Shown here: positions 17,476 through 60,425 of the stretch, in pieces
Position numbering within the stretch: the stretch's first letter is position 1
Layout: each line of letters opens with the position of its first letter
Assembly (NCBI GenBank): GCA_965208675.1
Contig: OZ242351.1
Span: 1,184,001 to 1,248,000, forward strand
Source of the DNA: Candidatus Poribacteria bacterium
Lineage (GTDB): Bacteria; Poribacteria; WGA-4E; PCPOR2b
DNA length: 64,000 nt
Reading direction: 5' to 3'
The notes under the pieces: model-generated
Seen by the model: the letters and a program-made list of their open reading frames with translations, nothing else
Told to the model about the DNA's origin: nothing
The model's database searches: none
Position numbers and translations under genes: made by a program

Positions 17476-17500
17476 GTAGGGGCGCCCCTTGTGGGTGCCC
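17476..17500 (+). repeat. GTAG-family REP palindrome
   Basis: GTAGGGGCGCCCCTTGTGGGTGCCC; related copy at 59384. Confidence 0.7.
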
Positions 17501-17541
17501 ACTTACTGACCGGCACCACCCCCGATTAGGAAAGAATATCA

Positions 17542-17754: not shown

Positions 17755-17757
17755 ATC

Positions 17758-18163: not shown

Positions 18164-18248
18164 CTGCCTACCCATATCCGCTGTGGGAGAGGCATCCTTG
18201 CCTCGATAATTGGGTGAACGCCCTTCGCCTCACTTCGGTTGAAGGGGT

Positions 18249-20003: not shown

Positions 20004-20046
20004 TAATGATTAGTTGCCAATCGCAACTTCACTGAATATGGAATGC

Positions 20047-20385
20047 ATGATGCATATCACAGGGATTTTTGAATTCATCAGCCCCAAGTCAATTTGAATC
20101 AAAGGCACTCGAGTCGGTATCGAAATTGTCATTGAGAAATTTCCTGACGGTGCAAACCCGGATGAAATTCGACGACAGCACCCACATCTTACATTAAAGC
20201 AGATTCATGGGACGATTACCTACTACCTGTTCAACAAAGAGCCAATCGACGCCTATATTGAAGCCGGGCGAAAGCAAGCCGAACAGACTTATGCCCAACA
20301 GCGAAAAAACCCGTCGCCGGGCGTGGCGCGGCTCATGAAAATCAAAGCCCAGCGCGAAGCCGCACAATTACAACCCCATAACTAA
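20047..20385 (+). pseudogene. DUF433 protein with an internal nonsense codon
   Basis: MMHITGIFEFISPKSI*IKGTRVGIEIVI..PHLTLKQIHGTITYYL; TGA at 20095-97 where CGA (Arg) is expected. Confidence 0.8.
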
Positions 20386-20484
20386 ATGGGATGAACAGAA
20401 TCTATTGTAGTGCTAGCAATAACGAAAATAATTTCGCGTTAATTATCGCCTCTGTGCACATCGTCTGATGGAACTGACTTCATC

Positions 20485-24665: not shown

Positions 24666-24753
24666 TTAGGCAAATGACATGGATTCGGCGCATTGCATCT
24701 GCGTCCAACATTTATCCGCGGCAATCCGCGATTCAGAGGTTTGGAGAATGAAA

Positions 24754-26489: not shown

Positions 26490-26921
26490 TGTCAATTCGT
26501 GAATTGACATTTTAATGGAACCGCCATCGGCAATTAGGCGGCAACGGCGGCTAGCAAATTTAACGGCGCCAATGTGGGGAAAGGGTTGCTAGCGGCGACG
26601 CGCGGCGGATACAACGCGTACTCCATTGAGGGTCGGGACCTCCTGCACCAAAGTCGGTGACAATTAGACACTTCTTGAAATACTAACGGATTCCTTGATG
26701 CGAAATTGATTCAAATGACCATTCATACCGGTTCCCACCATTCCATTCGAGCGAAAATTATATCTGCATCTGATCACTTGCCCCGAATGTGCATCATGAT
26801 ATGTTGGAACACTATGTCGCCGTCCGGCTGCCTTTAAACCCAACGGTTACACAGCGCTTTTGTACCGAATTTCTTGAGTTTTGAATCCGTCGCAGTTCCA
26901 TCTAAAGGGAGAAAACCTCTT

Positions 26922-28814: not shown

Positions 28815-28940
28815 CAATGCGGGTACGCGGGCAGTTTTAATGGCGGGAGACATTGGTGTTGAGTCGCGAGTATTGACCGAACACCCGAAGATTTAGAAAG
28901 TCGAATCGTCCACTGTAAAATCAAAAAGGAGTACCCACCG

Positions 28941-30857: not shown

Positions 30858-30972
30858 ACTTTGAAATCATCACTAAATAAACCATCGCACCTTGTAGATT
30901 TTGGGCGCACCCGCCCTGAAATCCCAAGTATCAATAAAGGCGCCATTCCATCAGAATAGAGGAAAGTGTAAA

Positions 30973-33900: not shown

Positions 33901-34794
33901 AATCACAAGGAAATTATTGAGAGGCATGAAGGAACCGTAAATTCCGTTGTGTTTTCCCCCGATGGCGACATCCTCGCTACAAGAGGAGCGACCATTCGGT
34001 TATGGGACGCGGACAGCGGAGCACTGAAACTGACATTTGTGAGAAACATTTGGTCCGATTCTCTTGCGTATGCGCCGGACGGGCGAACTGTCGCTAGTGC
34101 AAGTGCGCACAACAATACAATTAGCTTGTGGGACGCCGTGACCGGCGAACAAAGGGAAACTCTTGAAGGGCATACGGATTACATCAATGCCGTGGCATAT
34201 TCTCCGGACGGAAGTACTCTCGCCAGCGGCAGTCGGAACAAAATAATTCGTCTTTGGGATGCCACCTCAGCGACACACAAGGGAACCCTTGAGGGACACG
34301 CGGATGAAATCAATTCTGTCGCCTTTTCTCCGGATGGAAACACCCTCGCGAGTGGAAGTAAGGACAAGACAATTCGATTGTGGGATATCGGAACAGGGAA
34401 ACACAAGCTAGTTCTTAACGGACATTCACATGAGATTAGTTCCGTCGCGTTCTCACCAAATGGTCAAATCCTCGCTAGTGGGAGCTGGGACAAGACAATC
34501 CGATTGTGGGATGTCGTAACGGGAAAACACAAGGTAACCCTTGAAGGGCATGAAAGCATCGTCGAGTTCGTTACGTTCTCCCCAGATGGCAAATTGCTCG
34601 CCAGTGGAGGTTGGGACAAAACGGTTCGGTTGTGGAATGTCATTACCGCCAATCACACGCGGATATTTGAAGGACATACGGATTGGGTCAATTCGCTTGC
34701 ATTTTCCCCGGATGGCAAAACACTTGCCAGCGGGAGCAACGATGGAACGCTTCTTGTCTGGACGGTCAATCCATCGCCGATTTCTTCACAATAA
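30973..34794 (+). CDS. Secreted WD40 protein with two tandem modules
   Basis: Signal-peptide-like N-terminus; two modules starting WHLPEGAIMRLGKG and WNLPQNAKFRLGKG. Confidence 0.93.
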   Translation: MYRRLFFSIWLWCVAPQFLPAVIAQDYNQWHLPEGAIMRLGKGTTYDIAYSPDGNRIAVASGIGVWLYDAHTGAEFSLLKSHPVGVRSIAFSPDGNILAGGSADNISSDSLESAVWLWDVDSRELKHTLVGHWWSVNSVAFSPDGKTLASAAWEEIRLWDTESGKHKRTFEGHKRTVYSIAFSPDGNTLASAGADNKIRLWDIGSGEHKRTLKGHTGTVNSVAFSPDGKTLASGSEDQTIRIWDAKTGKRKKTLRKNIRNFNQLWEDVKLSLKGLKIGVKSVAYSPDGSTLASAGMTIRLWNAATGELKQKFEKTGWVDVIVYSPDGATLTSGSDYRPVHLWDAATGKLKQTLKKHEGGVNSVVFSPDGNSLASEGSTTRLWDVTTGQPKPIRKGRKGGFSVAISTDSRTLAAGSYNGSIPLWKADTGDYIGSLDGHKKWVYSVAISPDGNTLASGSKDKTVRLWNVNTRAHIRTLKGHKGDVRSVAFSPDGFTVASGSEDEKIRLWDVVTGNCRRIIEGHTYQINAITFSPDGEFLASGSRGDTICLWDVNTGRRMQVFKGHNGWVNGIAFSPDGNTLASSGNDKTIRLWDLETGHDKRALKGHTDDVDSVAFSPDGRIIASGSRDGTILIWAVDSATVSPPVKLPEKVFTRQPPETYIRWNLPQNAKFRLGKGMMHDLTYSPNGSQLVVASSIGIWRYDAHTGVEIDLLTGHKGKVNSIAYSPDGKNLVSVSDDKTIRLWDALSGIHRRTLEGHKSQINSVAISFDGATLASAAWNEIGLWDAATGQLKQTLQGHENHVKTLAFAFTNHILASGSWDKTICLWDAVTGEHKHTLKGHTDHVNSVAFSPDGSTLASGSDDKTICLWDVTTGKRKTIIKRGIHNVTDIWDFVTRRRTHKWHTEEVRTVAFSPDGGTLASGSSDFTIRLWEANTGEFKRMHERAGWADTIVYAPDGETIAIGSAFNDTIRILDPSTGNHKEIIERHEGTVNSVVFSPDGDILATRGATIRLWDADSGALKLTFVRNIWSDSLAYAPDGRTVASASAHNNTISLWDAVTGEQRETLEGHTDYINAVAYSPDGSTLASGSRNKIIRLWDATSATHKGTLEGHADEINSVAFSPDGNTLASGSKDKTIRLWDIGTGKHKLVLNGHSHEISSVAFSPNGQILASGSWDKTIRLWDVVTGKHKVTLEGHESIVEFVTFSPDGKLLASGGWDKTVRLWNVITANHTRIFEGHTDWVNSLAFSPDGKTLASGSNDGTLLVWTVNPSPISSQ

Positions 34795-40186: not shown

Positions 40187-40438
40187 TTCGTCATCGCCTC
40201 TAGAATCTCAATTTTCATCTCGTTTCTGAATATTTTACAGTATTCTGTGATTCATGTCTACATTGTGTTGCGTACGATTCGTTCGTAATGACCGTTGACC
40301 GTTTTTCGACCTTTTTGCATATCTTCAACATTAGACAAATCCTAACCGCGTTTATCGGCACGGCATTCACAGCCATAGCAATAGAAACTTTTTATTTTAA
40401 CGCTTAAATTCTTGGCAATGCACGCTAATAATTCAAAG

Positions 40439-41662
40439 ATGCAACCGATTTTTCCTCGTCAAATCCTATTCGCCGCATTCGCAATAGCCGCCGCTGCCAG
40501 TTTTTTGCTGTGCGGATACGAATTCATCCGAGCCGTCTCAGACTCACTGTTTATCGGTGCCTATGGCGCTGAAAACCTGCCTTGGGTCATGGCTGCTGTG
40601 TTTCCCGGCGTTTACCTAATGATTTTCCTTTACGGCCGTCTCCTTTCGTGGGTCGGTGCAAACCGCGCGCTCATCGTGACATCGCTGCTTTCGGGAGTAA
40701 TGATCTTATCCGCCTATGGTCTGATTTTGAAAGGCTTTCCTATCGCCACAGCAATCATCTACGTCTTTCGCGAGGCGTACATCGTTCTCATTATCGAACA
40801 ATACTGGGCATTCGTCAACAGCACGCTAAGTCCCAACCAGGCACGCCGCATCAACGGTCCTTTTTGCGGCCTAGCATCGTTGGGATCGGTCGCGGGGGGA
40901 TTCCTCGCCGGACATTTGGCGGAACGGGTGGGTTCAGACACGCTGCTAATTTTCACGGCTGCGTCACTGCTGCCAGCCGCGGCATGTTCAGCTGCGGCTT
41001 ACGCCTTCGCTGGTACGCCGCAGCCATCTGAAGCTGAACGCGGCGGAAAATTTGGACACACCGGGCTGCGGGTGTTATTTCAATCCCGATATCTCATGTT
41101 CATCGGTTTGTTGGTCATAACTACGCAGATAGTTTCAACCGTGTTGGACCTTCGATTTAAAGGCCTAATTGAAATTGAAATACCGGAAATAGACGAGAGA
41201 ACCGCGTTCATCGGAAATTTTTACGGCACGCTTGGCGCCGTCGCCGCAACTCTCCAATTTGTGGTTACGCCACTATTGCTGCGATTTGTCCACATTCGCA
41301 TCGTGCACCTTGCCATTCCAATAATACATCTCATCACCTGCAGTGTCCTCACTGCCTCACCGTCGCTGTGGATTAGTGCTGCTGCGTTTTTAGTATTTAA
41401 AGGGCTTGATTACTCAATTTTCCGCGCCGGCAAAGAGATTTTTTACATCCCTTTGCCGTTCGATGCCCGATACCGGGCAAAGCAGATTATCGATTCTTTT
41501 GGCTATCGATCTGCAAAAAGCGGCAGTGCATTCATAATCGCCCTAACGCGTCTGCCCGCATCAGCGTTTTCCTTGGCTGCTATAATTGCGGCAACCATCT
41601 GGTCCGGTATTGTATCAAATTTAGCAACGCAGTATCAGACAGTGGAGAAAACTCAAGATTGA
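40439..41662 (+). CDS. Npt1/TLC-like (ATP/ADP translocase family) MFS transporter
   Basis: About 11-12 TM segments; YEFIRAVSDSLF, QYWAFVN, KGLDYSIFRAGKEIFYIPL..RYRAKQIIDSFGYRSAK. Confidence 0.75.
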   Translation: MQPIFPRQILFAAFAIAAAASFLLCGYEFIRAVSDSLFIGAYGAENLPWVMAAVFPGVYLMIFLYGRLLSWVGANRALIVTSLLSGVMILSAYGLILKGFPIATAIIYVFREAYIVLIIEQYWAFVNSTLSPNQARRINGPFCGLASLGSVAGGFLAGHLAERVGSDTLLIFTAASLLPAAACSAAAYAFAGTPQPSEAERGGKFGHTGLRVLFQSRYLMFIGLLVITTQIVSTVLDLRFKGLIEIEIPEIDERTAFIGNFYGTLGAVAATLQFVVTPLLLRFVHIRIVHLAIPIIHLITCSVLTASPSLWISAAAFLVFKGLDYSIFRAGKEIFYIPLPFDARYRAKQIIDSFGYRSAKSGSAFIIALTRLPASAFSLAAIIAATIWSGIVSNLATQYQTVEKTQD

Positions 41663-50066: not shown

Positions 50067-50912
50067 CTAGGCTCTTCGATCAATCCCTGCTTCAGCGAAT
50101 GCACGAGATAACACGCCATAAGAAAAATCCGATGCTAGGAACGGATCATAGTCCTTGCGGTCTTGTACCATCATACTTACTTCGGCGGTAATGAATCCGT
50201 CATAGCCGTGTGTTTGCATCGCATGTAGGTACGCTACAAAATCGAAATTTCCTTCCCCTGGAATGAGAAACTCAAAGTCCGGATAACGCCCACGCTGATC
50301 CTTGACATGAGCGTGGACAGAATGCGGTGCTAGGACTGAAACCGTTTCTTCGATGGTCATCCCGACGATGTCAAAGTGGCTGATATCGAAATTTACCTTG
50401 AGGTTTGGTGAATCTACTAGCTCCAGCAACTCAATCATTTTATCCGGCGTATCAATAATTGCGCCGACGTGCGGTTCCATCGCAATTGTCACACCATGCG
50501 ATTGTGCGTATTCAACGAGATCAGCTGTCCGTTCCACGAGTAACTGCTTCCGGTCTTCCCACTGTTCCGGTTTACCGCCCGGAGTCGTGTTAATAGCGGG
50601 AATCATATCTTCCTGCCCTAAATCCACCGCTAAATCTATAGCGCCCTTCAGTCTCCGCAAATTGCGTGTGTGCGCTTCGAAATCGGTTTCAAGCAAACTC
50701 GAATGCGCGGCAATTGCCGGCAACGCCAGATGATGCTTCCTTAACAAATTGGCAATCCGTTTACGTTTATCGCTGTCAAGCGCGCTCAATTCTGTCGTGT
50801 AACGCGGAATGACCGTCAGTTCAATACCGTCAAACCCAAGTTGTGCAATATGGCGTATTGCCGTTTCAACGGGCACGCTCGGCATTCCCCACGTACTATA
50901 ACCGAGTTTCAT
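50067..50912 (-). CDS. Sugar phosphate isomerase/epimerase (xylose isomerase-like TIM barrel)
   Basis: GFDGIEL, IAMEPH, NFDISH, HAHVKD, PGEG, ITAE. Confidence 0.9.
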   Translation of the reverse strand: MKLGYSTWGMPSVPVETAIRHIAQLGFDGIELTVIPRYTTELSALDSDKRKRIANLLRKHHLALPAIAAHSSLLETDFEAHTRNLRRLKGAIDLAVDLGQEDMIPAINTTPGGKPEQWEDRKQLLVERTADLVEYAQSHGVTIAMEPHVGAIIDTPDKMIELLELVDSPNLKVNFDISHFDIVGMTIEETVSVLAPHSVHAHVKDQRGRYPDFEFLIPGEGNFDFVAYLHAMQTHGYDGFITAEVSMMVQDRKDYDPFLASDFSYGVLSRAFAEAGIDRRA

Positions 50913-50931
50913 ACTTACGCTCCGTCATACG

Positions 50932-51717
50932 TTAGGGCCAAACCTGCGGGAAATACTGTCCCTTCAACAATTCCCCGTCCTCCACTTCTACGAACGGCTT
51001 CATTACGTGTTCACCGCTGGCATCGAACCGCGTTTCTTGCGTCATATAGTGTATCGCAATTGCCCGCCGCGGCCCCGCGCTAGTATTAGCGTGAGATGCG
51101 TGCCACGTCATCCCGTGGTGGTAGTGTACCTCTCCCATTCGCACAGGGCACCGCAATGCCTCCACTTTGCGCCCGTTGAATTCAGCAGGCAGGTCCTCAA
51201 ACGTGTCCAATTTTTGCTGGAGAAATTCAATCTGATCGCCCCAGCGGTACGAACCTGAAACCATACTCATGCAGCCATTGGATTCATCGACATCATCTAA
51301 AGCCGTCCAAGCAGTGACTTGTGTCTTCGGGTGCAGGATCGGCCACAGCGGTGCGTCTTGATGCCATCGATTAACGCCCCCTACTTCAGGAGGTTTGTAC
51401 TGAATCTGATCATGCCATACCCGCAGTTCGCTAGCCCGTGTCAACTGGGCAATCTCCTCGACAATCTTCCGATTACTCAACAGCGCCCGGAATACATCGC
51501 TCACCTCCCAAATATTGACAATTTGCCAGACTAACTTGTTTGGCGCGCTCGTCGCATTACGCTGCAAGAGAGGCTGCGCGGTATCGGCGTCATCTCTGTT
51601 ATCAATGACTCGCGTGAGCTCACGCCGCAACGCCTCCACCTGATCTCGATCCAACGCAAGTCCGCCATTGAGAAACCCCTTTGCGTCGAATTCCTCTACT
51701 TGTGATTCGGTCAACAT
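50932..51717 (-). CDS. Phytanoyl-CoA dioxygenase (PhyH) family protein
   Basis: WHQDAP, AWTALDDVDESNGCM, TWHASHAN..RRAIAIHY. Confidence 0.92.
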   Translation of the reverse strand: MLTESQVEEFDAKGFLNGGLALDRDQVEALRRELTRVIDNRDDADTAQPLLQRNATSAPNKLVWQIVNIWEVSDVFRALLSNRKIVEEIAQLTRASELRVWHDQIQYKPPEVGGVNRWHQDAPLWPILHPKTQVTAWTALDDVDESNGCMSMVSGSYRWGDQIEFLQQKLDTFEDLPAEFNGRKVEALRCPVRMGEVHYHHGMTWHASHANTSAGPRRAIAIHYMTQETRFDASGEHVMKPFVEVEDGELLKGQYFPQVWP

Positions 51718-51862
51718 CAGTGACTCCCTCCCATTCAGAATAATATGCTATCTACAGTTACACGATGTACCGAATGTGCAGTTAATGGCTTTTCAATAAG
51801 ATAAAGTGAATGTGAAAGCCGCACTTGCCTATAGATTAATCCCTGCGGTTTTGGGCAACACC

Positions 51863-53137
51863 TCACACACTTAGAATTCCCAAACTGTCGTTGATTTCTT
51901 GTTGATAAGATTTGACCTTCTCGCTGATTACTTCGTCCACCGAAACAGGATGTCCAATCTCATTGGATTCCAGCATCGCATAAGAGACAGCAACAGATCG
52001 CGTGCCATGCTCGGCATCCACTTCAACATCCCCTTCACCCAAGATGGATGCTGCAAAATTCCCGTATTCAATTGCGATGTTCTTTCGATCTGTTTCAGAA
52101 AATGGGAATTGGTAATGCCAAAGCCGATCTCCACCAAACAGACCGGCTGTTATTGTATCAAGATGAAAATCTGGAACTAGATTTAGCATTCTCTCGTCAT
52201 CGAAAACATCCTCTCCCTCAATGTTAAGAATTATAGTGCCCCCGCTCCGATCCTGCGGCAAAGTCATCGATCCTCGGGAGCCGTGAATGCGCCTCGTCCA
52301 TATACCCTGGCCATACCCGGCGTGATCTTCAACGTACTGTCCGACAACGCCGCTCTTGAACGTCAGTGTAGCGTAAGCGGCATCTTCTGCAGTGGCTTCA
52401 AATTCGGCTGGCATCTGTTTCTGCCATTGCTCATAAACGCGGCTGGGGTTATTTTTAGGGCTACCTCCTTTAGCCGCGGGGTTTTTGCGGGTGCGCTCGT
52501 GCAGTCTCGTTTCCGCATAGACCGTATCTATTTCGCCCAGCAAGTATTCCATCATGTCAGTGAAATGCACGCCGACATCAAGAAGTATCCCCCCTTGGTT
52601 CTTTTGGTGGCGCCACGCCGTGATTATCATCTGATCCCGGCCTCCAACGGAATGATGGATGAGAAAGCGTGGCTCCCCGATGACGCCAGCGTCCAGAAGT
52701 GCTTTTGCCAACCGGTTGATGGGATCGCGGCGGTAATTCTCCGCCACACTCAAAATTGCATTGTTGTTCTCTGCAGCACGCCAAATTATGTTGCACGCCC
52801 GGACTGTAACACCCATCGGCTTTTCAACCATGGTGTGCCACCCGCGATTCAGTGTTTCAACAACGAGCGTATGATGATATCGCGGCGTTGAGGTCACACT
52901 GACCGCTTCAACACCGATTGCAGCCAATTCATCCAAATCACTGACGACGGTCGGATGGGTGCCAAAATCTCTCGCAGCCTGATTCGCAAGGGATGCCGCG
53001 TTCTCTCGTACCGGATCGCATGCGCCAACTAGCTCAAAGCCTTCCCACCCGATACGTCGGAGTTCTGCAAGGCCGTACAGATGGCGGTGTCCCATACCCC
53101 CACAGCCAACAATTGCCAATCGAATCTGCCGACTCAC
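51863..53137 (-). CDS. Gfo/Idh/MocA family oxidoreductase
   Basis: IVGCGGMG, VEKPM, AENYRR, GGILLDVGVH; GTG start after GGAG. Confidence 0.92.
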   Translation of the reverse strand: MSRQIRLAIVGCGGMGHRHLYGLAELRRIGWEGFELVGACDPVRENAASLANQAARDFGTHPTVVSDLDELAAIGVEAVSVTSTPRYHHTLVVETLNRGWHTMVEKPMGVTVRACNIIWRAAENNNAILSVAENYRRDPINRLAKALLDAGVIGEPRFLIHHSVGGRDQMIITAWRHQKNQGGILLDVGVHFTDMMEYLLGEIDTVYAETRLHERTRKNPAAKGGSPKNNPSRVYEQWQKQMPAEFEATAEDAAYATLTFKSGVVGQYVEDHAGYGQGIWTRRIHGSRGSMTLPQDRSGGTIILNIEGEDVFDDERMLNLVPDFHLDTITAGLFGGDRLWHYQFPFSETDRKNIAIEYGNFAASILGEGDVEVDAEHGTRSVAVSYAMLESNEIGHPVSVDEVISEKVKSYQQEINDSLGILSV

Positions 53138-53496
53138 TATTACCTGTCTCCATAAAACGGAATTAATGATTTGGTTCGCCAATTATAGCGGTGTCATAGG
53201 TACATGTCAATGACAAAAGGATTCCAAATCTGTCGGCGTGCCGTTCCAACCGACAATCATCTTGCATTGCGTCTTTGGTTTTTGATAAAATCTATAAAAT
53301 TAACCCATTCGCACTCCAGAATGTAGTTGCTAGATTCATCGGGAGTCAATGGGCATGTTCAGACGCTACACCCATCGTAGGCAGGGCATCTTGCTTCGCG
53401 TTCGTGATGAAAAACCGTAATAAATCACCAAATCGTTAAACCGCGTTAATCCTAAAAAAAAAAATTGAACTGAACAATGCGAGAAAGTGTGATGAA

Positions 53497-54045
53497 ATGA
53501 AACGCGTGTGCGTATTCTGCGGATCCAGCATGGGAAGGAATCCGGTGTATGCTGAAGCCGCAAAGCAGTTAGGCAACGTCTTGGCAAACAGAAACCTAGG
53601 ACTCGTTTACGGCGGCGCGAATATAGGCATGATGGGTGTGCTTGCCAACGCCGCCATCGATGCTGGCGGGGAAGTGATTGGCGTCGTACCAACGATATTC
53701 GTCGAGAAGGAAATCGCCCATGCCGCACTTTCTGACTTGCGAATCGTTGACTCGATGCACGAACGAAAAGCGCTTATGGCAGAACTTTCTGATGCGTTTG
53801 TTGCTCTCCCTGGCGGATTCGGCACCCTCGACGAATTCTTCGAAATGGTTACGTGGACGCAACTTGGGCTGCACCATAAACCCTGCGGTGTTCTTAACGC
53901 GTGTGGGTATTACAGCAAATTGACGGATTTCTTAGATTATGCGGTTTCGGAGGGGTTCATTAAGCCGCGTCATGGTTCATTGATACACATTGACGAAAGT
54001 CCGGAGGCGTTGCTTGAGAATTTTGAAAAGTTTATGCACTATTGA
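53497..54045 (+). CDS. LOG family nucleotide 5'-monophosphate phosphoribohydrolase (TIGR00730)
   Basis: VCVFCGSS, LVYGG, MHERK, LPGGFGTLDE. Confidence 0.95.
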   Translation: MKRVCVFCGSSMGRNPVYAEAAKQLGNVLANRNLGLVYGGANIGMMGVLANAAIDAGGEVIGVVPTIFVEKEIAHAALSDLRIVDSMHERKALMAELSDAFVALPGGFGTLDEFFEMVTWTQLGLHHKPCGVLNACGYYSKLTDFLDYAVSEGFIKPRHGSLIHIDESPEALLENFEKFMHY

Positions 54046-55097
54046 CTTACTCACACGAATACTGCGAGGAGAGGATTATAAAAGCCGTAGTCTTTCAAGA
54101 AATTGGCAAATTATGCGTACAAGATAAACCGGTGCCGACGCTTTATACAGGCGACGTCCTAGTCAAGGTCAACCTTTGCGGTATCTGTGCATCAGACTTG
54201 GCAGCGCTCAACGGGGACATCACCGATTACTCACCGCCCGTCGTCATGGGGCATGAACTCGCAGGAATTGTCGTTGAAAGCCGACATCCCAACGCGACAG
54301 TAGGCGAAAACGTGACCGTGAATCCAATGCTGTCCTGTGGTAACTGTGATTATTGCCGGGCAGATTTGGACAAGTATTGCTCGCAAATTGAGGGAATCGG
54401 ACACGACATTGACGGCGGTTACGCTGAATACCTCCGGATGCCAAAACACGGAATTGATACAGGCAAACTCATCTCTGTACCAGATACGATTCCGCCGGAA
54501 GAGCTAATTTTTCTGGAGCCGTTAGGATGCTGTATCAATGCGATGCGCGAAACCATCTTCGATAAGAGCTTGGCAATCTTGGGGGCAGGCCCCATTGGTC
54601 TAATGTTCGTTAAACTAGCCAATAAGGCGGGATTGCGGACGTTTGTTCTTGAACCGCATGCGCATCGGCGGAGCGCCGCAAATGAATTAGGCGCAGACGC
54701 CGCTTTTGATATTACACCAGAGCAGGTCGAGGCGTTCATAGATAAGACTAACGGCGGCGTGAATACTGTTATCTCTGCGACTGTCAACAATCAGCGCGCG
54801 ATAAATCTCGCCTTCGCGGTTGTGCGGCGAGGAGGCTGTATAAATTTCTTTGGATTGGCACCAGGCGATCAGGAACTGCGGATTAACCTCGAACATTTTC
54901 ATTACTCAGGTCACAAACTAATGGCATCCTGGGCATTCTCCCGCTGGAGTTTGCGTGAAGCTAGTCGAATGATTGTTGATGGAACGATTGACATCAAGCC
55001 TTTGTTAACGCATAGATTTCCAATCGAAAAGGCTATTGAGGGGTTTGAAAACGCCCGGCAGCGGCACGGCGTGAAAACCGCAATGCACAGCGGATAA
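54042..55097 (+). CDS. Zinc-dependent (MDR) alcohol/polyol dehydrogenase
   Basis: GICASD, GHE, CxxCxxC..C, GAGPIG; start ambiguous (TTG 54042 or ATA 54078). Confidence 0.9.
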   Translation: MTYSHEYCEERIIKAVVFQEIGKLCVQDKPVPTLYTGDVLVKVNLCGICASDLAALNGDITDYSPPVVMGHELAGIVVESRHPNATVGENVTVNPMLSCGNCDYCRADLDKYCSQIEGIGHDIDGGYAEYLRMPKHGIDTGKLISVPDTIPPEELIFLEPLGCCINAMRETIFDKSLAILGAGPIGLMFVKLANKAGLRTFVLEPHAHRRSAANELGADAAFDITPEQVEAFIDKTNGGVNTVISATVNNQRAINLAFAVVRRGGCINFFGLAPGDQELRINLEHFHYSGHKLMASWAFSRWSLREASRMIVDGTIDIKPLLTHRFPIEKAIEGFENARQRHGVKTAMHSG

Positions 55098-55150
55098 ATA
55101 CTTGGGCGATGTTACTCCAAGCAACTTCTCCTACTTGATAACAAATCATC

Positions 55151-56071
55151 ATGAACACATTAAAGGCATACCTTGAACTCATTCGTTATCCCCTCTTCGC
55201 CATCCCGATCGTTGCAACGCTACCCGGCGCATTGATTGCTTCAGAGGGTGCGTGGAGTTGGCGTGTCGGACTAACGCTCCTTATTGCGATGCTCGGTTAC
55301 TTCGCAGGCATGATGAAGAACGACTATTTCCACCGCGATCAGGACTATATTGTAAATCCGAACCGCCCGATTCCGTCGCACCGTCTCACACCTCGCCAGG
55401 TAATGATTACCGCAAGCGGCATTTACATCATCTGCGTCATTTTGGGTTTCACGCTCCACATCAAAGCCGGACTTCTGGTGATTGCCCTAGTGATGATTTC
55501 GCATTCTTATAACGCCATCTTCAAGGAACGCGGAATACTGGGAAGCATTAGCCTTCCCATTGGCATCGGTCTCCTCAATATTTTTGGCGCGTTAGCCGTA
55601 AGCGGCGGCGTGCCGCGTTTGGTCTGGTATGCGTTCGCCGCGACAACGCTCTACGACTGCGGCACGCACATCACCACAACATTCAAGGACATAGAGCGTG
55701 ACAAAAAAATTGGCATTACCACCACCCCTTTACAATTGGGAATCAAACCTGCGCTTGTCATTTCCGGCGTGGCAACAATCCTCGCTTTTATTGCCGCCGC
55801 TCTGCCATACTGGATAGAAGGTGTTGGTTGGCATTATACGGTGTGGATTGTTTTTGCATTGATTGCAACAAGTATCACCCGTCTTCCGCTTTACCTGAAT
55901 CCGAATGAAAAGAACGGCTATCTTGCCCTTCAGGGTTCCATGATTGGCGCAGTTACGTTTTTCCCTTGCTTCGCTAGCATTCAGATTTCCCTCTGGGGTT
56001 CGGCGCTGTTAATCTTGCCCTTGCTGTTGGTGACCATGACGCTGCTGAAAGTGACCAAGCGGGAGGTCTAA
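55151..56071 (+). CDS. UbiA-superfamily prenyltransferase (DGGGP-synthase-like)
   Basis: About 8-9 TM segments; NDYFHRDQDYIVNPNRPIPS and KDIERDKKIGITTTP motifs. Confidence 0.88.
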   Translation: MNTLKAYLELIRYPLFAIPIVATLPGALIASEGAWSWRVGLTLLIAMLGYFAGMMKNDYFHRDQDYIVNPNRPIPSHRLTPRQVMITASGIYIICVILGFTLHIKAGLLVIALVMISHSYNAIFKERGILGSISLPIGIGLLNIFGALAVSGGVPRLVWYAFAATTLYDCGTHITTTFKDIERDKKIGITTTPLQLGIKPALVISGVATILAFIAAALPYWIEGVGWHYTVWIVFALIATSITRLPLYLNPNEKNGYLALQGSMIGAVTFFPCFASIQISLWGSALLILPLLLVTMTLLKVTKREV

Positions 56072-56179
56072 TTCGAAACCGGCTTCTTTCTCAAACCATT
56101 TCGACACTGCAGAAAAGTCAGTGTCTTTGCAATAGCCCAACTCCTTCACAGCCAAAAAGGTTTAAAACACAACTAAAAC

Positions 56180-57853
56180 ATGAAAAAGCTCGCCGAATCC
56201 GCCCTACATCGAGGTTCCGCCCATTTACTCAGGCAACAAAATTCAACAGGCAGCTTTGAAGGAAAGCTTTCCTCAAGCACATTTCCCACCTGCGCTTACG
56301 CTTGGGTAATGTTTGCTCAAAACCAACTGCCCGATCAAATGTTAATTGATTGGATCCTAAATAACCAGAACCCGGACGGAACATGGGGGCTTGATGCTGC
56401 CAATCAGCCAAATCGCGAAGCTACATTATTTGCGAAACTCATATTAAGTCAAGTTGCCAAGCAGAATCCAAATCCGCAGATTACAGAAGCCTTAAAGCGC
56501 ACCCCTGATTATCCTTTAGCGCTTGCATTGAACAAATTGGCTTATGCAGCATTCGGCGAGTACAACTGGGACAAGCTGACCATTCCAAGGCGTATGCTCC
56601 CTGTAATGACGCTGACAAAAAAGGTGCTAGCCAGATTCCCATCACTGCGGTCCTTCCTAAAACCCCCGAGGAACGTCCTCCCTCCCGTAGACCTCTTCAA
56701 TTCACCTATGTTTGGAAACCTATTTATCGCGGAGCAATATACACTCGTCGCTGTTTTTACCATGATTGAACTGAATACCCGGCGACGCCCAAAAGTAATC
56801 AAATCGCTTGTCAATTGGCTCAAGGTACACATGCTACCCGACAATAGTTGGTTTCGTGTAAATTACATAACTGCGCTATCCGTATTAGCCCTAGTGGAAC
56901 TTCAGAAAGTACAAGGCATTGACGAAGACACCCAGTTGATAATCGATCGAGGAATTTCCTGGCTTCAATCCACGCGAAATACCGATGGCGGGTGCCGTGA
57001 GGCCTTAAACCTTAACGTGTGGGATACCGCCCTTAGCATAATCTCGCTTCTAGAAATTAACGGCATCAACGGAAACAGCGCGATCCAAATTGCATGCAAA
57101 TGGTTAATCGAAAATCAGAACACGGATGGCGGTTGGGCGTTTTCTCGAATGCGCCCAAACGAAAACCTCCCGAGCGATGCTGACGACACGGCTTTAGCCA
57201 CGCTGGCATTAATCCAATCGAAAACGCCGCCGACTGCCGCAGCAATTCAAAACGGATTGAATTGGCTAACCGCGAACCAAACATCCGATGGATGCTGGAG
57301 TACATATCTTCCCGGTCAGGGCGATGTCGGGTGCGTAAGCATCACCGCACACGCAATCGAGGCATTGCACGAAGTACCCGGTACTGAAGCGCAGATTTCG
57401 CGGGCAACCCACTGGATTAAGGGTCAAATTTCATCTGACGGATATTGGACGGATTTATGGTTAGCCAAACGAACTTATGGGACAGCCTGTGCCGTTATTG
57501 CCTTAAACAAAGTGGGAATGAAGGACACGACGGAAGTTTCACGGGGAGTGCATTGGCTTGAATCCGTACAAAACAGCGACGGCGGGTGGGGAGAAGATAT
57601 GTTTGGTAACCGGAGGGATAGCACAATCGAACAAACGGCGTGGTGCACCCACGCGCTCCTACTCGCCAACCCTGGAAACCAAGCCGCCAAAAATGGGTTA
57701 AACCACCTCCTAAACCGCCAAAAATCGGACGGTTCCTGGGACGCGAGTTGCGTGGGCATCTACTGGGAAATCATCGGCGGCTACGCCGATCCGATTTACG
57801 CTTCCGTGTTTCCCCTGCGCGCACTGAATCAGTATTTGAAAGGTTCAAAATAG
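56180..57853 (+). CDS. Squalene-hopene-cyclase-like class II terpene cyclase
   Basis: NVWDTA, GGWAFS..PSDADDTA (DxDD), several QW repeats (QNTDGGW, QNSDGGWGE, QKSDGSW). Confidence 0.88.
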   Translation: MKKLAESALHRGSAHLLRQQNSTGSFEGKLSSSTFPTCAYAWVMFAQNQLPDQMLIDWILNNQNPDGTWGLDAANQPNREATLFAKLILSQVAKQNPNPQITEALKRTPDYPLALALNKLAYAAFGEYNWDKLTIPRRMLPVMTLTKKVLARFPSLRSFLKPPRNVLPPVDLFNSPMFGNLFIAEQYTLVAVFTMIELNTRRRPKVIKSLVNWLKVHMLPDNSWFRVNYITALSVLALVELQKVQGIDEDTQLIIDRGISWLQSTRNTDGGCREALNLNVWDTALSIISLLEINGINGNSAIQIACKWLIENQNTDGGWAFSRMRPNENLPSDADDTALATLALIQSKTPPTAAAIQNGLNWLTANQTSDGCWSTYLPGQGDVGCVSITAHAIEALHEVPGTEAQISRATHWIKGQISSDGYWTDLWLAKRTYGTACAVIALNKVGMKDTTEVSRGVHWLESVQNSDGGWGEDMFGNRRDSTIEQTAWCTHALLLANPGNQAAKNGLNHLLNRQKSDGSWDASCVGIYWEIIGGYADPIYASVFPLRALNQYLKGSK

Positions 57854-57918
57854 AAATAATCCGTACACGCTGCTAAAACTCACGTCGCACAAGGGCAATC
57901 ACCTCATGTCTGGCTAAA

Positions 57919-58590
57919 ATGATTTCTGTCATCATTCCAATTCTCAACGAAGCGAAAATCTTGGAACAGTCGCTCTCCCAACTCACTCAACAACTGCAAA
58001 GTCATCAGCTAATTATCGTCGACGGCGGCAGTTCAGATGGAAGTCTTTTCATTGCGAAAAAATTCGGACAAGCATTATCTTCTCCCCAAGGAAGAGCCAG
58101 TCAAATGAATGCCGGCGCTGCCGCTGCAAACGGAGACATTCTGCTGTTTTTGCATGCTGACGTTTGGCTGGAGTTCGGCGCAATCAACGGAGTCGAAACA
58201 GCAATCGCAACAGGATACGTGGGCGGTGCGTTTAAACAGCGCATCGAAGGCGGGCATATTCTATATCGCCTAATTGAGCGAGGTGCGAACTTTAGAGCAC
58301 AACGCCTACAGCTTTTTTACGGCGACGGAGGGATTTTTATACGTAAGCGCCACTTCTACCAAATCGGCGGCTTCCCCAATGTTCCTATCCTTGAAGAGAT
58401 GGAATTTTCTCGAAAACTCCGACACCTCGGTAAAACCACACTTGTTGAGCCAGGAATTCGAATCTCCTCCCGGCGCTGGAAGAAGAGCGGGATCGTTCGA
58501 ACGACCACCCTCAATTGGTTTATCACTGCGCTGTTTTCTCTGGGTGTATCCCCGGTCCGGCTCGCGAGATTGTATCGTCATATCCGTTAA
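57919..58590 (+). CDS. Glycosyltransferase family 2 (TIGR04283-like)
   Basis: ISVIIPILNE, VDGGSSD, GRASQMNAGA, LLFLHAD, SSRRW. Confidence 0.9.
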   Translation: MISVIIPILNEAKILEQSLSQLTQQLQSHQLIIVDGGSSDGSLFIAKKFGQALSSPQGRASQMNAGAAAANGDILLFLHADVWLEFGAINGVETAIATGYVGGAFKQRIEGGHILYRLIERGANFRAQRLQLFYGDGGIFIRKRHFYQIGGFPNVPILEEMEFSRKLRHLGKTTLVEPGIRISSRRWKKSGIVRTTTLNWFITALFSLGVSPVRLARLYRHIR

Positions 58591-58766
58591 TTGCGGAAAT
58601 TCACCCATCGCCATTAGCTCAAAGTCGAAATGCGTCAAACCCGATTGCATGGTACCACATCCACACCGGTAGTTACATAGTAAATGATCGTCCTTAAAAT
58701 CGCGCAAACAGACTCGAATTGAATTCCCTTCGTTGCCCTTGTACCGTCAGGTACTAACACACGATC

Positions 58767-59348
58767 TCATCTCTGATTCCGGTAGATTGTCACCTCCATA
58801 GCGTCCCGATTGACCCACGGCAAATCAATCTCAAACCAGTGGGTCTGACTTTCGTATAGAGAACGAACAAGATTCAGGTAATCCGCCATCTCTGACGCAC
58901 CGATCGCTACGTTGTCCGCAACCACCGTCGCACCATCAAGGAGACGCGATTCAATTGCCCGAAAAGAGGAGTAATATGCGCCGAAACTGTTGTCTAGCAG
59001 TAGAAAATCTATGTCGTCATTAACTACTTTCAGGACGTCTGCGGCATCCCCAATCCGCGAATCAACTTGCTCGCTGAAACCGGCGCGCGCGAAGTTCTCT
59101 TGGGCTTCATGGGCGCGGTCGGCATCAATCTCAACAGTGATTAGCCTGCCCTTGCCCATCGCTTGCAATCTCGACGCTATCCACAATCCGGAATAGCCGA
59201 TTGCGGTACCGCATTCTACAATTAGTGACGGTTTTACCTGCTCAATGAGGTCGGTGAGAAATTCAGCCTTTTCGCGTCCGAGCATAGGAATATGCCGCTG
59301 CCGGCATTGGCTATCCACTTTCTGCAACACCTGATCGAATTGGGTCAT
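58767..59348 (-). CDS. SAM-dependent O-methyltransferase
   Basis: VECGTAIGYSGLWIA, ITVEID, IGDA, VVADNV. Confidence 0.9.
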   Translation of the reverse strand: MTQFDQVLQKVDSQCRQRHIPMLGREKAEFLTDLIEQVKPSLIVECGTAIGYSGLWIASRLQAMGKGRLITVEIDADRAHEAQENFARAGFSEQVDSRIGDAADVLKVVNDDIDFLLLDNSFGAYYSSFRAIESRLLDGATVVADNVAIGASEMADYLNLVRSLYESQTHWFEIDLPWVNRDAMEVTIYRNQR

Positions 59349-59383
59349 CGGTTTATCCTTCCCTTACATGGGGTTCATTCGCT

Positions 59384-59408
59384 GTAGGGGCAACCCTTGC
59401 GGTTGCCC
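59384..59408 (+). repeat. GTAG-family REP palindrome
   Basis: GTAGGGGCAACCCTTGCGGTTGCCC. Confidence 0.7.
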
Positions 59409-59955
59409 TCATCGCCGCTCCAGTAGCCATAGCCACAGTCCCAGAGAGACCGAAGGTACATAGAAATTATAGCAACAGATCGACATCAAGCCCCAGAAGG
59501 GATCTTCGATCATCTAATCGACGATAGCCATTTCAGGTATATAGAATATTATCGCGCCACCCAGCCAGACTTCTTGTCGGCGTTGCTCATTCTCATGGTG
59601 TACATGCCAACTCACAAATCTCAATAAATTTAGCCATAGTTGACAGCTCTTCAGTGTACGCGGGTACTACATTCGCGCCAAAGCCCACGCATATCTGAAG
59701 CGTACTCTGAAATTCTCGTACCGCGGCCAATTTTGAAAGATGATAACATAGGTTTCGCAGATTGTGCATGCGAAAAATGACTCGTACAAATTCTATGCTC
59801 CGCTCCCCAATGTATCACTATTCGCACATGTTCTTACGAGAAAAGCCGCGCACGCCGTGACATAATCTCAAGACACGGTTGAGGTCGTGCTGATTAGAAC
59901 ATTAAACGGAATTCAGAATCGGCTTCCGAACCTCCAATTCCCGTAGCTTTTTGGC

Positions 59956-59984
59956 TTGACGATCTACATGGCGTTGTGTAGAAT
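59956..59984 (+). promoter_or_regulatory. Sigma70-type promoter
   Basis: TTGACG, 17-bp spacer, TAGAAT; ATG begins 6 nt downstream. Confidence 0.7.
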
Positions 59985-59990
59985 ATTACC

Positions 59991-60425
59991 ATGAATGGGG
60001 TAATAAAGATGCCCTTCCGATTCCTTTTCTTTCTGGGTGCCGTTTCCTTTCTTGCATCGGGATGCTCGCCGCTACAACATCACGCTACCATTGACCAATA
60101 CAATGAATTTGCAATAGAGGCGGCTGAATTGCAATTATGGAACGAAGCTGTGTTCCGATGGGAACGCGTCATTGAAATTGACCCACAGTACGCGCGAGCA
60201 CACAATAATTTAGGAGTCGCTTACGAAGCGTTGGGAAAGACCGATGAAGCCATTGAAGCCTACAAACGGGCGACGGAATTAGATTCATCCAACAAGTTTT
60301 ACCGTTTCAACTATAGAAAGTGCCGTCTCAACGTTCAACGCAATATCAAAAGGCAACCTGATACAGAGGATGAGGCCGTTCAAGAAGATGAAGATACCGA
60401 AAAGGAACGCCAAGGCAAATCTTGA
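59991..60425 (+). CDS. TPR lipoprotein
   Basis: Lipobox LASGC; AHNNLGVAYEALG TPR. Confidence 0.85.
   Translation: MNGVIKMPFRFLFFLGAVSFLASGCSPLQHHATIDQYNEFAIEAAELQLWNEAVFRWERVIEIDPQYARAHNNLGVAYEALGKTDEAIEAYKRATELDSSNKFYRFNYRKCRLNVQRNIKRQPDTEDEAVQEDEDTEKERQGKS

What the first reader, a model, noticed from the sequence alone, without database searches (positions are those of the whole stretch)
53497..59348. Candidate undescribed terpenoid-conjugate pathway: LOG, Zn dehydrogenase, UbiA prenyltransferase, DxDD class II cyclase, GT2 and methyltransferase
Seen: five co-oriented genes with short gaps (overlap, 53, 108 and 65 bp) and a convergent SAM methyltransferase. The cyclase keeps DADD and QW repeats but is only 557 aa, and no squalene synthesis (hpnCDE) genes lie in the window. 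Established: UbiA plus SHC-fold cyclase pairs build meroterpenoids (e.g. cyanobacterial merosterol). LOG enzymes release bases, including prenylated adenines, from nucleoside monophosphates. Inference: the cluster prenylates a polyol or nucleotide acceptor, then cyclises, glycosylates and possibly methylates it. A terpenyl-purine product recalling sponge agelasine-type compounds is a speculative possibility; LOG may be unrelated.
Basis: partly seen in the sequence, partly recalled or inferred. Interest (0 to 1): 0.8.

Follow-up and report, generated by a model that had tools for sequence, protein, structure and literature searches.

The report
Poribacterial terpene cyclase–glycosyltransferase gene pair
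The six genes are really there, but only two of them, an unusual squalene-cyclase-like enzyme and a small sugar transferase, stay together across the sponge-associated phylum Poribacteria, which points to an uncharacterised cyclic terpenoid glycolipid and not a six-step terpenyl-purine pathway.

Summary
Observation confirmed: all six ORFs, their gaps, the DADD motif and six QW-like repeats are at the stated coordinates. None of 41 window ORFs scanned is a squalene- or prenyl-diphosphate-synthase gene.

The window is from a Candidatus Poribacteria genome.

In 80 related loci, only cyclase + GT2 are conserved: adjacent and co-oriented in 77 of 80. UbiA lies upstream in 4 loci, the Zn-dehydrogenase in 3, and LOG and the methyltransferase in 2.

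The cyclase is a confident two-domain class II fold. The nearest solved structure is A. acidocaldarius SHC, TM 0.81. It is not a canonical SHC:
- It scores 141 bits against a 431-bit cutoff.
- It sits outside the SHC clade.
- The SHC D447 equivalent is Ser in 79 of 79.

The GT2 passes the TIGR04283 cutoff.

The UbiA is DGGGP-synthase-like, conserved phylum-wide, and has an invariant NDxxH first motif.

Best reading: a phylum-specific operon making a glycosylated cyclic terpenoid lipid. UbiA and ADH are possible upstream steps. LOG and the methyltransferase are bystanders. Substrate and product are unknown.

New variant of a known kind; moderate interest.

The parts
56180..57853 (+). Core gene 1: non-canonical SHC-superfamily class II terpenoid cyclase (557 aa, DADD 333-336, six QW-like repeats)
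   Evidence: Pfam/NCBIfam; AF2 pLDDT 96; Foldseek top hit SHC 2sqc, TMq 0.81; outside the SHC clade; orthologues in 80 of 80 Poribacteria loci
57919..58590 (+). Core gene 2: small GT-A glycosyltransferase, TIGR04283 family (223 aa), with two C-terminal helices
   Evidence: TIGR04283 228.4 bits against cutoff 182; directly downstream of the cyclase on the same strand in 77 of 80 loci, median gap 14 bp; AF2 pLDDT 87.6, generic GT-A matches
55151..56071 (+). Lineage-specific neighbour, possible upstream step: UbiA-family membrane prenyltransferase, DGGGP-synthase-like, first motif NDYFHRDQD (middle Asp replaced by His)
   Evidence: 6m31 DGGGP synthase, profile E 3e-19; His61 invariant in 23 of 23 aligned orthologues; adjacent to the cyclase in 4 of 80 loci, in two branches; orthologues 65-93% identical across Poribacteria
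54042..55097 (+). Lineage-specific neighbour: Zn-dependent medium-chain dehydrogenase of the polyol/threonine-dehydrogenase type
   Evidence: upstream of UbiA in L001, L002 and L015 only (3 of 80), separated from UbiA by an inserted restriction-modification pair in L001 and L015
53497..54045 (+). Neighbour, probably unrelated: LOG-family (TIGR00730) protein
   Evidence: 195.9 bits against cutoff 96.35; PGGFGTLDE motif; near the cyclase only in L001 and L002 (2 of 80)
58767..59348 (-). Neighbour, probably unrelated: class I SAM-dependent O-methyltransferase, with weak likeness to sugar O-methyltransferases
   Evidence: orthologue (78-85% identity) convergent after GT2 only in L001 and L002

Best explanation
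The conserved unit is a two-gene operon found throughout Candidatus Poribacteria. It encodes a two-domain class II terpenoid cyclase of the SHC/OSC superfamily that is not a canonical squalene-hopene cyclase, followed by a small GT-A glycosyltransferase of the TIGR04283 family. Proposed mechanism: the cyclase has no transmembrane segment and probably binds the membrane on one face, as SHC does. It protonates the terminal double bond of a linear isoprenoid lipid with the central Asp of DADD (D335). That Asp is backed by the conserved equivalents of SHC H451, Y495, W312/D313, W489, Y420 and F365. The chain then folds into a polycyclic product. The residues that SHC uses at the far end of its cavity are replaced here, so the ring count or termination step probably differs from hopene. 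The GT2 then adds a sugar to a hydroxyl, carboxyl or phosphate of the product, giving a cyclic terpenoid glycolipid that is a phylum-typical membrane component. In the window's lineage and one other, a DGGGP-synthase-like UbiA and a Zn-dehydrogenase lie immediately upstream. They may make the substrate, for example a prenyl ether of a polyol. LOG and the methyltransferase are incidental neighbours. Shown: gene content, conservation pattern, fold, catalytic motifs, placement outside the SHC clade. Inferred: membrane association, substrate class, the order of steps, and any role for UbiA or the dehydrogenase.
For: Cyclase + GT2 are adjacent and co-oriented in 77 of 80 loci spanning 56-81% cyclase identity, while all other flanking genes vary. 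The median gap is 14 bp. One exception is cut by a contig end (L017) and one has a DDE transposase at the GT2 position (L030). The cyclase model is confident (pLDDT 96, pTM 0.95) and best matches SHC (TMq 0.81), then OSC (0.78) and drimenyl diphosphate synthase (0.72). DxDD and the H451, Y495, W312, D313, W489, Y420 and F365 equivalents are invariant in 79 of 79 poribacterial cyclases. It is not a canonical SHC. It scores 141.3 bits on TIGR01507 (cutoff 431.1) and 176.2 on TIGR01787 (cutoff 322.7). The poribacterial clade plus P0121 (100*) lies in a 26-row unlabelled group (97*), apart from the 51-row SHC/SHC-like/tetrahymanol-synthase-like clade (99*). The D447 equivalent is Ser in 79 of 79, against Asp in 19 of 19 SHCs. 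The E45 and E93 equivalents are Ala and Phe. The family is discrete: 825 and 787 bits, one cluster at 451 bits, then 199 bits or less. The GT2 passes the TIGR04283 cutoff. Its nearest Atlas clusters include one auto-named 4,4'-diaponeurosporenoate glycosyltransferase family, a terpenoid glycosyltransferase. UbiA-cyclase adjacency occurs in two separate branches. The ADH-(RM)-UbiA-cyclase-GT2 order is shared by L001 and L015.
Against: No substrate-supplying gene (squalene/phytoene synthase, polyprenyl synthase, GGGP synthase) is in the window or among the 75 neighbour ORFs scanned from the loci. The isoprenoid substrate is therefore unknown and squalene is not excluded. The GT2 acceptor is unknown. 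Fold and sequence searches gave only generic GT-A matches. NCBI names its family for arsenosugar biosynthesis, not terpenoids. UbiA is more than 10 kb from the cyclase in most genomes: it is absent from 76 of 80 loci, of which 4 have too little upstream DNA to tell. Its link to the cyclase could therefore be accidental. All relatives examined come from one phylum, so conserved adjacency partly reflects shared ancestry. Three aligners disagree on the register of the C-terminal active-site segment.
Confidence: 0.45

Rival explanations
1. Ordinary hopanoid biosynthesis: the cyclase is simply a divergent, shortened squalene-hopene cyclase making hopene or diplopterol from squalene made elsewhere in the genome, and the GT2 decorates the hopanoid in the way the hopanoid-associated glycosyltransferases do.
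For: SHC is the best sequence match in the PDB (1gsz, E 2e-32) and the best structural match. The initiation machinery is fully conserved. Profile-profile alignment to canonical SHCs covers 535 columns. A hopanoid survey lists Poribacteria among phyla with a lower level of SHC conservation (passage read in PMC12324291).
Against: It scores 141 bits against a 431-bit equivalog cutoff. It lies outside the strongly supported SHC clade. The D447, E45 and E93 equivalents are changed in all 79 orthologues. No aligner places an aromatic residue opposite SHC F605. No hpn genes are in the window or the 80 loci. The GT2 gave no hit to any hopanoid-associated glycosyltransferase model at E <= 1e-3.
Confidence: 0.2
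2. One reading: the UbiA prenylates a polyol or other acceptor supplied by the Zn-dehydrogenase, the cyclase cyclises the prenyl chain, the GT2 glycosylates it and the methyltransferase methylates the sugar. In the strongest form, LOG supplies or releases a purine base to give a terpenyl-purine.
For: ADH, UbiA, cyclase and GT2 keep the same order in the window, L001, L002 and L015, and UbiA-cyclase-GT2 in L027. These lie on two branches of the cyclase tree. The UbiA belongs to the O-prenylating DGGGP/chlorophyll-synthase branch, which fits a hydroxyl acceptor. The methyltransferase has weak hits to rhamnosyl O-methyltransferases (PF04989 E 3.2e-7, NF045824 E 2e-5).
Against: Of the 80 loci, 76 lack UbiA within 10 kb (72 if the 4 with short upstream flanks are set aside), 77 lack the dehydrogenase, and 78 lack LOG and the methyltransferase. 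A restriction-modification pair sits between the dehydrogenase and UbiA in L001 and L015, so co-transcription is not required. In L015 a thymidylate kinase replaces LOG. The dehydrogenase also resembles the sugar/inositol catabolic enzymes encoded divergently next to it (IolM-, IolG-, IolE/IolO-like hits). LOG is a standard TIGR00730 protein.
Confidence: 0.2
3. The GT2 works in the pathway its family is named for (arsenosugar, rSAM/selenodomain-associated), and its adjacency to the cyclase is historical. Alternatively the cyclase-like protein is a non-catalytic alpha/alpha-toroid protein.
For: The GT2 exceeds the curated TIGR04283 cutoff, and sources name its orthologues 'rSAM/selenodomain-associated transferase 2' or 'arsenosugar biosynthesis glycosyltransferase'. 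Many 'prenyltransferase/squalene oxidase repeat' proteins are uncharacterised.
Against: No radical-SAM, DUF2064/TIGR04282 or arsenic gene is in the window or among the 75 neighbour ORFs scanned. The pair survives in 77 of 80 genomes while every other neighbour turns over. The catalytic DxDD and its supporting residues are invariant, which argues against a non-catalytic role.
Confidence: 0.07

Closest known systems
Squalene-hopene cyclase of Alicyclobacillus acidocaldarius (PDB 1gsz/2sqc) and TIGR01507 SHCs
   Same: Two-domain beta-gamma alpha/alpha-barrel fold (TMq 0.81), QW repeats, a DxDD general acid, and conserved equivalents of H451, Y495, W312, D313, W489, Y420 and F365.
   Different: About 75 residues shorter, through loss of several SHC loops. 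22-25% identity. 141 bits against a 431-bit cutoff. Separate clade. D447 becomes Ser, E45 Ala and E93 Phe. The C-terminal GTGFPxxFYLxY segment is replaced by an invariant VGIYWE(V/I)IGGYADPIY.
Merosterol pathway of Scytonema (UbiA-type prenyltransferase + class II cyclase MstE, PDB 6sbb)
   Same: A UbiA gene next to a proton-initiated class II cyclase. A review predicted this pairing for sponge meroterpenoids (passages read in PMC5618424).
   Different: MstE has a single domain of about 350 aa (TMq 0.41). The UbiA here resembles DGGGP and chlorophyll synthases, not aromatic prenyltransferases. The adjacency holds in only 4 of 80 loci.
Digeranylgeranylglyceryl phosphate synthase (PDB 6m31)
   Same: Best solved relative of the UbiA (profile E 3e-19, residues 1-255). 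It shares the RP(L/I)PS motif and the second DxxxD motif.
   Different: Below the equivalog cutoffs (126.3 against 269; 106.8 against 296). The first motif is NDxxHxxxD instead of NDxxDxxxD in all 23 aligned orthologues. No GGGP synthase or glycerol-1-phosphate dehydrogenase gene is nearby.
Terpenoid-directed GT2 enzymes (CrtQ of staphyloxanthin, CruG of myxol glycosides; hopanoid HpnI/HpnB, the last two recalled from memory)
   Same: A small GT-A family-2 transferase encoded beside a terpenoid-forming enzyme. An Atlas neighbour cluster is auto-named 4,4'-diaponeurosporenoate glycosyltransferase family. There is a weak CruG hit (E 3.9e-4).
   Different: Family membership by score is TIGR04283. 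No direct evidence for the acceptor. No hit to hopanoid-associated GT models at E <= 1e-3.
Bacterial class II di- and sesquiterpene cyclases (ent-CPP synthase 5bp8, Rv3377c 6vpt, drimenyl diphosphate synthase 7xq4)
   Same: Similar length (about 500-540 aa), beta-gamma fold, DxDD.
   Different: Much weaker sequence matches (E 8e-10 to 3e-6, against 2e-32 for SHC) and lower TM (0.57-0.72).

Membership tests
Canonical squalene-hopene cyclase (TIGR01507 equivalog) | Score at or above the curated equivalog cutoff | tested here: not met
   141.3 bits against 431.1; the subfamily model TIGR01787 gives 176.2 against 322.7
Canonical squalene-hopene cyclase (TIGR01507 equivalog) | Falls inside the SHC clade in a tree | tested here: not met
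   The poribacterial clade lies in a 26-row group (97*) separate from the 51-row SHC/SHC-like clade (99*). Quick IQ-TREE of 110 rows, midpoint root
Canonical squalene-hopene cyclase (TIGR01507 equivalog) | Second-sphere and termination residues (D447, E45, E93, F601, F605; A. acidocaldarius numbering, residue roles recalled) | tested here: not met
   Ser, Ala and Phe at the D447, E45 and E93 equivalents in 79 of 79. The F601/F605 register is ambiguous, but F605 is never aligned to an aromatic residue
Canonical squalene-hopene cyclase (TIGR01507 equivalog) | Converts squalene to hopene or diplopterol | not testable with these tools
   Needs an enzyme assay
Class II terpenoid cyclase, SHC/OSC superfamily | Beta-gamma double alpha/alpha-barrel fold with QW repeats | tested here: met
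   PF13243 161.1 bits and PF13249 70.2 bits; AF2 pLDDT 96; TMq 0.81 to SHC; six QW-like repeats
Class II terpenoid cyclase, SHC/OSC superfamily | DxDD general-acid motif aligned with that of SHC | tested here: met
   SDADDTA aligns with DVDDTA; D333, D335 and D336 are invariant in 79 of 79
TIGR04283 glycosyltransferase family | Score above the curated cutoff | tested here: met
   228.4 against 182
TIGR04283 glycosyltransferase family | Genomic association with the radical-SAM/selenodomain (ArsS) gene and TIGR04282 (the association itself is recalled) | tested here: not met
   No such Pfam hit in the 41 window ORFs or the 75 neighbour ORFs scanned. The rest of the genomes was not seen.
UbiA superfamily / DGGGP synthase | UbiA domain and multiple transmembrane helices | tested here: met
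   PF01040 126.2 bits; hydrophobic segments throughout the protein
UbiA superfamily / DGGGP synthase | Equivalog score for DGGGP synthase | tested here: not met
   106.8 against 296 and 78 against 353; the best model, PRK12884, gives 126.3 against 269
UbiA superfamily / DGGGP synthase | First Asp-rich motif NDxxDxxxD | tested here: not met
   NDYFHRDQD. His61 is invariant in 23 of 23 and aligns with the middle Asp of NDIFDIEID in 6m31. The second motif, DIERD, is present.
MstE-type meroterpenoid pathway | Single-domain class II cyclase acting on a UbiA-made prenylated aromatic acid | tested here: not met
   Two-domain protein; TMq 0.41 to MstE; the UbiA is not of the aromatic-prenyltransferase type; the substrate is untestable here
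LOG (TIGR00730) as part of the pathway | Family membership, and conserved linkage to the cyclase | tested here: not met
   Membership is met (195.9 against 96.35; PGGxGTxxE). Linkage holds in only 2 of 80 loci. The cytokinin-LOG equivalog NF058542 gives 137.3 against 300.

The most novel reading that the evidence does not exclude
Poribacteria make a lipid class not yet described. An O-prenylating, DGGGP-synthase-like UbiA with a His-substituted metal motif attaches a polyprenyl chain to a polyol (or polyol phosphate) shaped by the Zn-dehydrogenase. A dedicated SHC-superfamily cyclase then cyclises the ether-linked chain at the membrane surface, and the TIGR04283 GT2 glycosylates the head group. 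The product would be a cyclised isoprenoid-ether glycolipid. Such a pathway in abundant sponge symbionts could also be the long-sought bacterial route (UbiA plus SHC-like cyclase) to sponge meroterpenoid-type skeletons, and a source of unassigned polycyclic biomarkers.
Probability: 0.12. Interest if true: 0.8.

Novelty: new variant of a known kind. Interest (0 to 1): 0.5.

Why it matters
Poribacteria are uncultivated and abundant in many sponges, and their lipids are essentially unknown. A phylum-wide, sharply delimited clade of SHC-superfamily cyclases with its own glycosyltransferase implies a characteristic cyclic terpenoid glycolipid. That lipid could serve as a hopanoid or sterol surrogate, a chemotaxonomic marker for the phylum, or a source of polycyclic terpane biomarkers. 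It would also provide a new class II cyclase scaffold for biocatalysis. A review of sponge merotriterpenoids (PMC5618424, passages read) said that no biosynthetic pathway for sponge meroterpenoids had been identified, and it predicted a UbiA plus SHC-like pair. This locus gives concrete genes to test. My searches found no description of the pair in print. The key poribacterial pangenome paper (PMC6331548) and a class II cyclase review (PMC10954422) were not held and were not seen.

Tried and rejected
1. Complex prediction for cyclase + GT2 returned no verdict (score 0.00 in two runs, controls not run). It is neither for nor against binding.
Their taxa and contexts stay unknown.
3. A sigma-70 promoter and terminator scan of 53100-60000 found counts close to those of shuffles (12 against 8.8; 9 against 7.6) and nothing between the co-oriented genes. 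It was uninformative.
4. tblastn of the cyclase against 72,556 plasmids found only distant SHCs at 22-29% identity.
5. GT2 acceptor: sequence, profile and fold searches against the PDB gave generic GT-A hits (WrtF, PcManGT 6yv7, GalT1, DPMS) and no assignment.
6. Mapping SHC F601/F605/Y609 onto the poribacterial sequence: phmmer, MAFFT and hhalign give three different registers. I make no ring-number prediction from them.
7. Rejected the idea that the UbiA is a decaprenyl-phosphate phosphoribosyltransferase, MenA/MqnP, UbiA proper or heme O synthase. Those models score 25-49 bits.
8. Considered whether the UbiA is a UbiA-type terpene synthase. Its motifs do not match the NQxxG/AxxED motif quoted in PMC13483135. 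Unresolved.
9. Literature searches for Poribacteria with cyclase, terpene, squalene or hopanoid, for TIGR04283, and for SHC + GT + UbiA clusters found no description of this module.
The single genome-contig scan kept only the best 80 of 358 relatives, all of them poribacterial (79 titled Poribacteria, 1 'uncultured bacterium'). Synteny outside the phylum is therefore unchecked.

Full report
OBSERVATION. Pfam and NCBIfam confirm each domain call:
- a TIGR00730 LOG-family protein (195.9 bits, cutoff 96.35);
- a Zn-dependent medium-chain dehydrogenase;
- a UbiA-family membrane protein;
- a 557-aa protein with squalene-hopene-cyclase N and C domains;
- a 223-aa family-2 glycosyltransferase that passes the curated TIGR04283 cutoff (228.4 against 182);
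- a class I SAM methyltransferase.

The cyclase has DADD at 333-336 and six QW-like repeats. No squalene/phytoene synthase, polyprenyl synthase or hpn gene is among the 41 window ORFs scanned. Co-orientation with short gaps is normal in bacteria, so it says nothing about a pathway. Conservation in relatives is the test.

ORGANISM AND RELATIVES. The cyclase has many orthologues of about 572 aa at 58-88% identity. Every one that carries an organism name is Candidatus Poribacteria. A search of 1.84 billion cluster representatives shows a sharply bounded family: 825 and 787 bits for poribacterial clusters, a single cluster at 451 bits (P0121, 42% identity), then nothing full-length above 199 bits. 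Of these, 79 are titled Poribacteria and 1 is titled 'uncultured bacterium'.

I ran tblastn with the window's 14 proteins against the 80 loci and clustered all 1,170 locus ORFs.
- Cyclase and GT2 are adjacent on the same strand in 77 of 80 loci, with a median gap of 14 bp.
- The three exceptions: L017 is cut by a contig end; L030 has a DDE transposase at the GT2 position; L016 has an amino-acid kinase there and a shorter cyclase ORF.
- Everything else turns over. The next most common neighbour families occur in at most 33 loci. They include secretins, TonB receptors, regulators, an AI-2E transporter, GFO/IDH/MocA oxidoreductases and lectin-domain proteins.
- None of the 75 neighbour ORFs scanned is an isoprenoid, radical-SAM or DUF2064 gene.
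- UbiA lies directly upstream of the cyclase in 4 loci (L001, L002, L015, L027). Four further loci have too little upstream sequence to tell.
- The dehydrogenase is present in 3 loci (L001, L002, L015).
- LOG, the methyltransferase and the divergent GFO gene are present only in the 2 closest relatives (L001, L002).

In L001 and L015 a XamI-type restriction enzyme and its methylase sit between the dehydrogenase and UbiA. In L015 the gene before the dehydrogenase is a thymidylate kinase, not LOG. The six-gene order is therefore not conserved. The stable core is two genes.

On a tree of the 81 cyclases plus P0121, the UbiA-adjacent loci form two separate branches (window + L001 + L002; L015 + L027) inside a 31-row group with support 95*. 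L001 and L015 share the order ADH-RM-UbiA-cyclase-GT2. The four-gene block is therefore either ancestral to that group and later broken up, or maintained twice. Either way this is moderate evidence of a link, not strong evidence.

THE CYCLASE. AlphaFold2 on a 132-row alignment gives pLDDT 96 and pTM 0.95. Foldseek against the PDB ranks A. acidocaldarius SHC first (TMq 0.81). Next come human OSC (0.78), drimenyl diphosphate synthase (0.72), ent-CPP synthase and Rv3377c (0.57-0.61) and MstE (0.41). By sequence, SHC is far ahead as well (E 2e-32, against 8e-10 for ent-CPP synthase).

It is not a canonical SHC, for three reasons.
- It scores 141.3 bits on TIGR01507 (cutoff 431.1) and 176.2 on TIGR01787 (cutoff 322.7).
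- I labelled 116 full-length representatives by their NCBIfam scores and built a quick IQ-TREE of 110 rows. The poribacterial clade plus P0121 (100*) lies within a 26-row unlabelled group (97*). That group is separated from the 51-row clade holding all canonical SHCs, the shorter SHC-like proteins and the tetrahymanol-synthase-like proteins (99*). The root is at the midpoint only.
- Residue mapping through the phmmer alignment to 1gsz, checked across 79 poribacterial cyclases and 19 canonical SHCs and by hhalign, separates the two ends of the active site. The initiation machinery is invariant: D374/D376/D377, H451, Y495, W312, D313, W489, Y420 and F365 equivalents. D447 is Ser in 79 of 79 (Asp in 19 of 19 SHCs), and the E45 and E93 equivalents are Ala and Phe. 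The SHC segment GTGFPxxFYLxY is replaced by an invariant VGIYWE(V/I)IGGYADPIY.

Three aligners give three registers for that last segment, and none places an aromatic residue opposite F605. I conclude that protonation-initiated cyclisation is retained and that the distal, product-determining part of the cavity differs. I make no ring-count claim. The roles of the SHC residues are recalled from the literature and were not tested here.

The protein has no hydrophobic segment long enough for a transmembrane helix. One-sided membrane binding as in SHC is an inference.

THE GT2. It is a confident GT-A fold (pLDDT 87.6) with an HAD in place of DxD and two C-terminal helices. PDB sequence, profile and fold searches give only generic family-2 relatives, including lipid-phosphate-directed enzymes such as PcManGT and DPMS at low scores. 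Sources name its orthologues 'TIGR04283 family arsenosugar biosynthesis glycosyltransferase' or 'rSAM/selenodomain-associated transferase 2'. The partners that gave the family that name are not seen near it here. The Atlas places it next to TIGR04283 clusters and next to a cluster auto-named 4,4'-diaponeurosporenoate glycosyltransferase family. That is a lead towards terpenoid acceptors, not a test.

THE UbiA AND THE DEHYDROGENASE. UbiA orthologues (306-308 aa, 65-93% identity) occur across Poribacteria. The best solved relative is M. jannaschii DGGGP synthase (profile E 3e-19), followed by chlorophyll synthase. All equivalog scores are below their cutoffs. This places the UbiA in the O-prenylating branch of the superfamily.

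Its first metal-binding motif is NDYFHRDQD. The His aligns with the middle Asp of NDIFDIEID and is invariant in 23 of 23 orthologues. This is unusual and unexplained.

The dehydrogenase has the catalytic and structural zinc sites and a GAGPIG fold motif. It resembles polyol, threonine and scyllo-inosose dehydrogenases, well below their cutoffs. It could shape a polyol acceptor. It could equally belong with the divergent sugar/inositol-type genes next to it (GFO/IDH/MocA, PhyH, xylose-isomerase-like TIM barrel).

EXPLANATION. Best supported (confidence 0.45): a phylum-typical operon in which a non-canonical SHC-superfamily cyclase makes a polycyclic isoprenoid from a membrane-embedded linear precursor and the GT2 glycosylates it. 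UbiA and the dehydrogenase are candidate upstream steps. LOG and the methyltransferase are bystanders.

Rivals:
- a divergent but ordinary hopanoid cyclase with a decorating glycosyltransferase (0.2);
- coincidental adjacency of an arsenosugar-type GT2, or a non-catalytic toroid protein (0.07).

The substrate is the main unknown. Squalene cannot be excluded because only 64 kb of the genome was visible.

COMPARISON AND NOVELTY. The module works like SHC plus a terpenoid glycosyltransferase, but the cyclase fails three membership tests for canonical SHC. It shares only the UbiA-plus-class-II-cyclase idea with the merosterol pathway. Seven literature searches found no description of it. I read passages of PMC12324291, PMC9864124, PMC5735121, PMC7074536, PMC11868695, PMC13483135 and PMC5618424. 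PMC6331548 and PMC10954422 were not held and might bear on this. I rate it a new variant of a known kind, with interest 0.5. It is a clean, testable, phylum-wide enzyme pair in an uncultivated symbiont lineage, but its chemistry is unknown and the more exciting six-gene reading is not borne out.

Noticed in passing
L001:6431-8976 and L015:6088-8645: The same XamI-type restriction endonuclease + N6-methylase pair is inserted between the dehydrogenase and UbiA in two different poribacterial lineages. The methylase ORF overlaps the UbiA start by 4 bp. The pair is 83-85% identical between the two loci, more than the flanking genes (65-78%). The window and L002 lack it.
   Followed up: partly
window 55319-55345 (UbiA residues 57-65): The first Asp-rich motif of the UbiA reads NDYFHRDQD. 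A His replaces the middle Asp of the canonical NDxxDxxxD and is invariant in 23 of 23 poribacterial orthologues. The meaning for metal or diphosphate binding is unknown.
   Followed up: partly
window 10058-23652: A type I restriction-modification system is split by other genes: hsdM 10058-11626, hsdS 13374-14684, hsdR 20485-23652. An AAA ATPase (15000-16223), a PIN-domain protein (16743-17210) and unannotated ORFs lie in between. It looks like a defence island.
   Followed up: no
window 26874-34794: Three tandem, very large WD40-repeat proteins (646, 638 and 1297 aa), a eukaryote-like repeat class.
   Followed up: no
window 40412-41662: A 416-aa ORF with a partial match (residues 320-395) to the TLC ATP/ADP transporter family (65.3 bits). 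A nucleotide transporter would be notable in a symbiont, but only the C-terminal part matches.
   Followed up: no
window 50067-53182 (- strand) and 24679-25545: A divergent trio of GFO/IDH/MocA oxidoreductase, PhyH dioxygenase and xylose-isomerase-like TIM barrel, with weak IolG/IolE/IolO-like hits, lies next to LOG. A second PhyH gene lies elsewhere in the window. These may be sugar or inositol catabolism genes to which the Zn-dehydrogenase could also belong.
   Followed up: partly
L030:11771-12751 (-): A DDE transposase occupies the position directly after the cyclase where the GT2 lies in 77 other loci. It suggests a recent disruption of the pair in that genome.
   Followed up: partly
L030:9189-9968 and 15 other loci: In one sub-clade (16 loci) a Laminin_G_3/ConA-like lectin-domain protein of about 259 aa lies directly upstream of the cyclase on the same strand. 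In L030 it overlaps the cyclase start. Relevance unknown.
   Followed up: no
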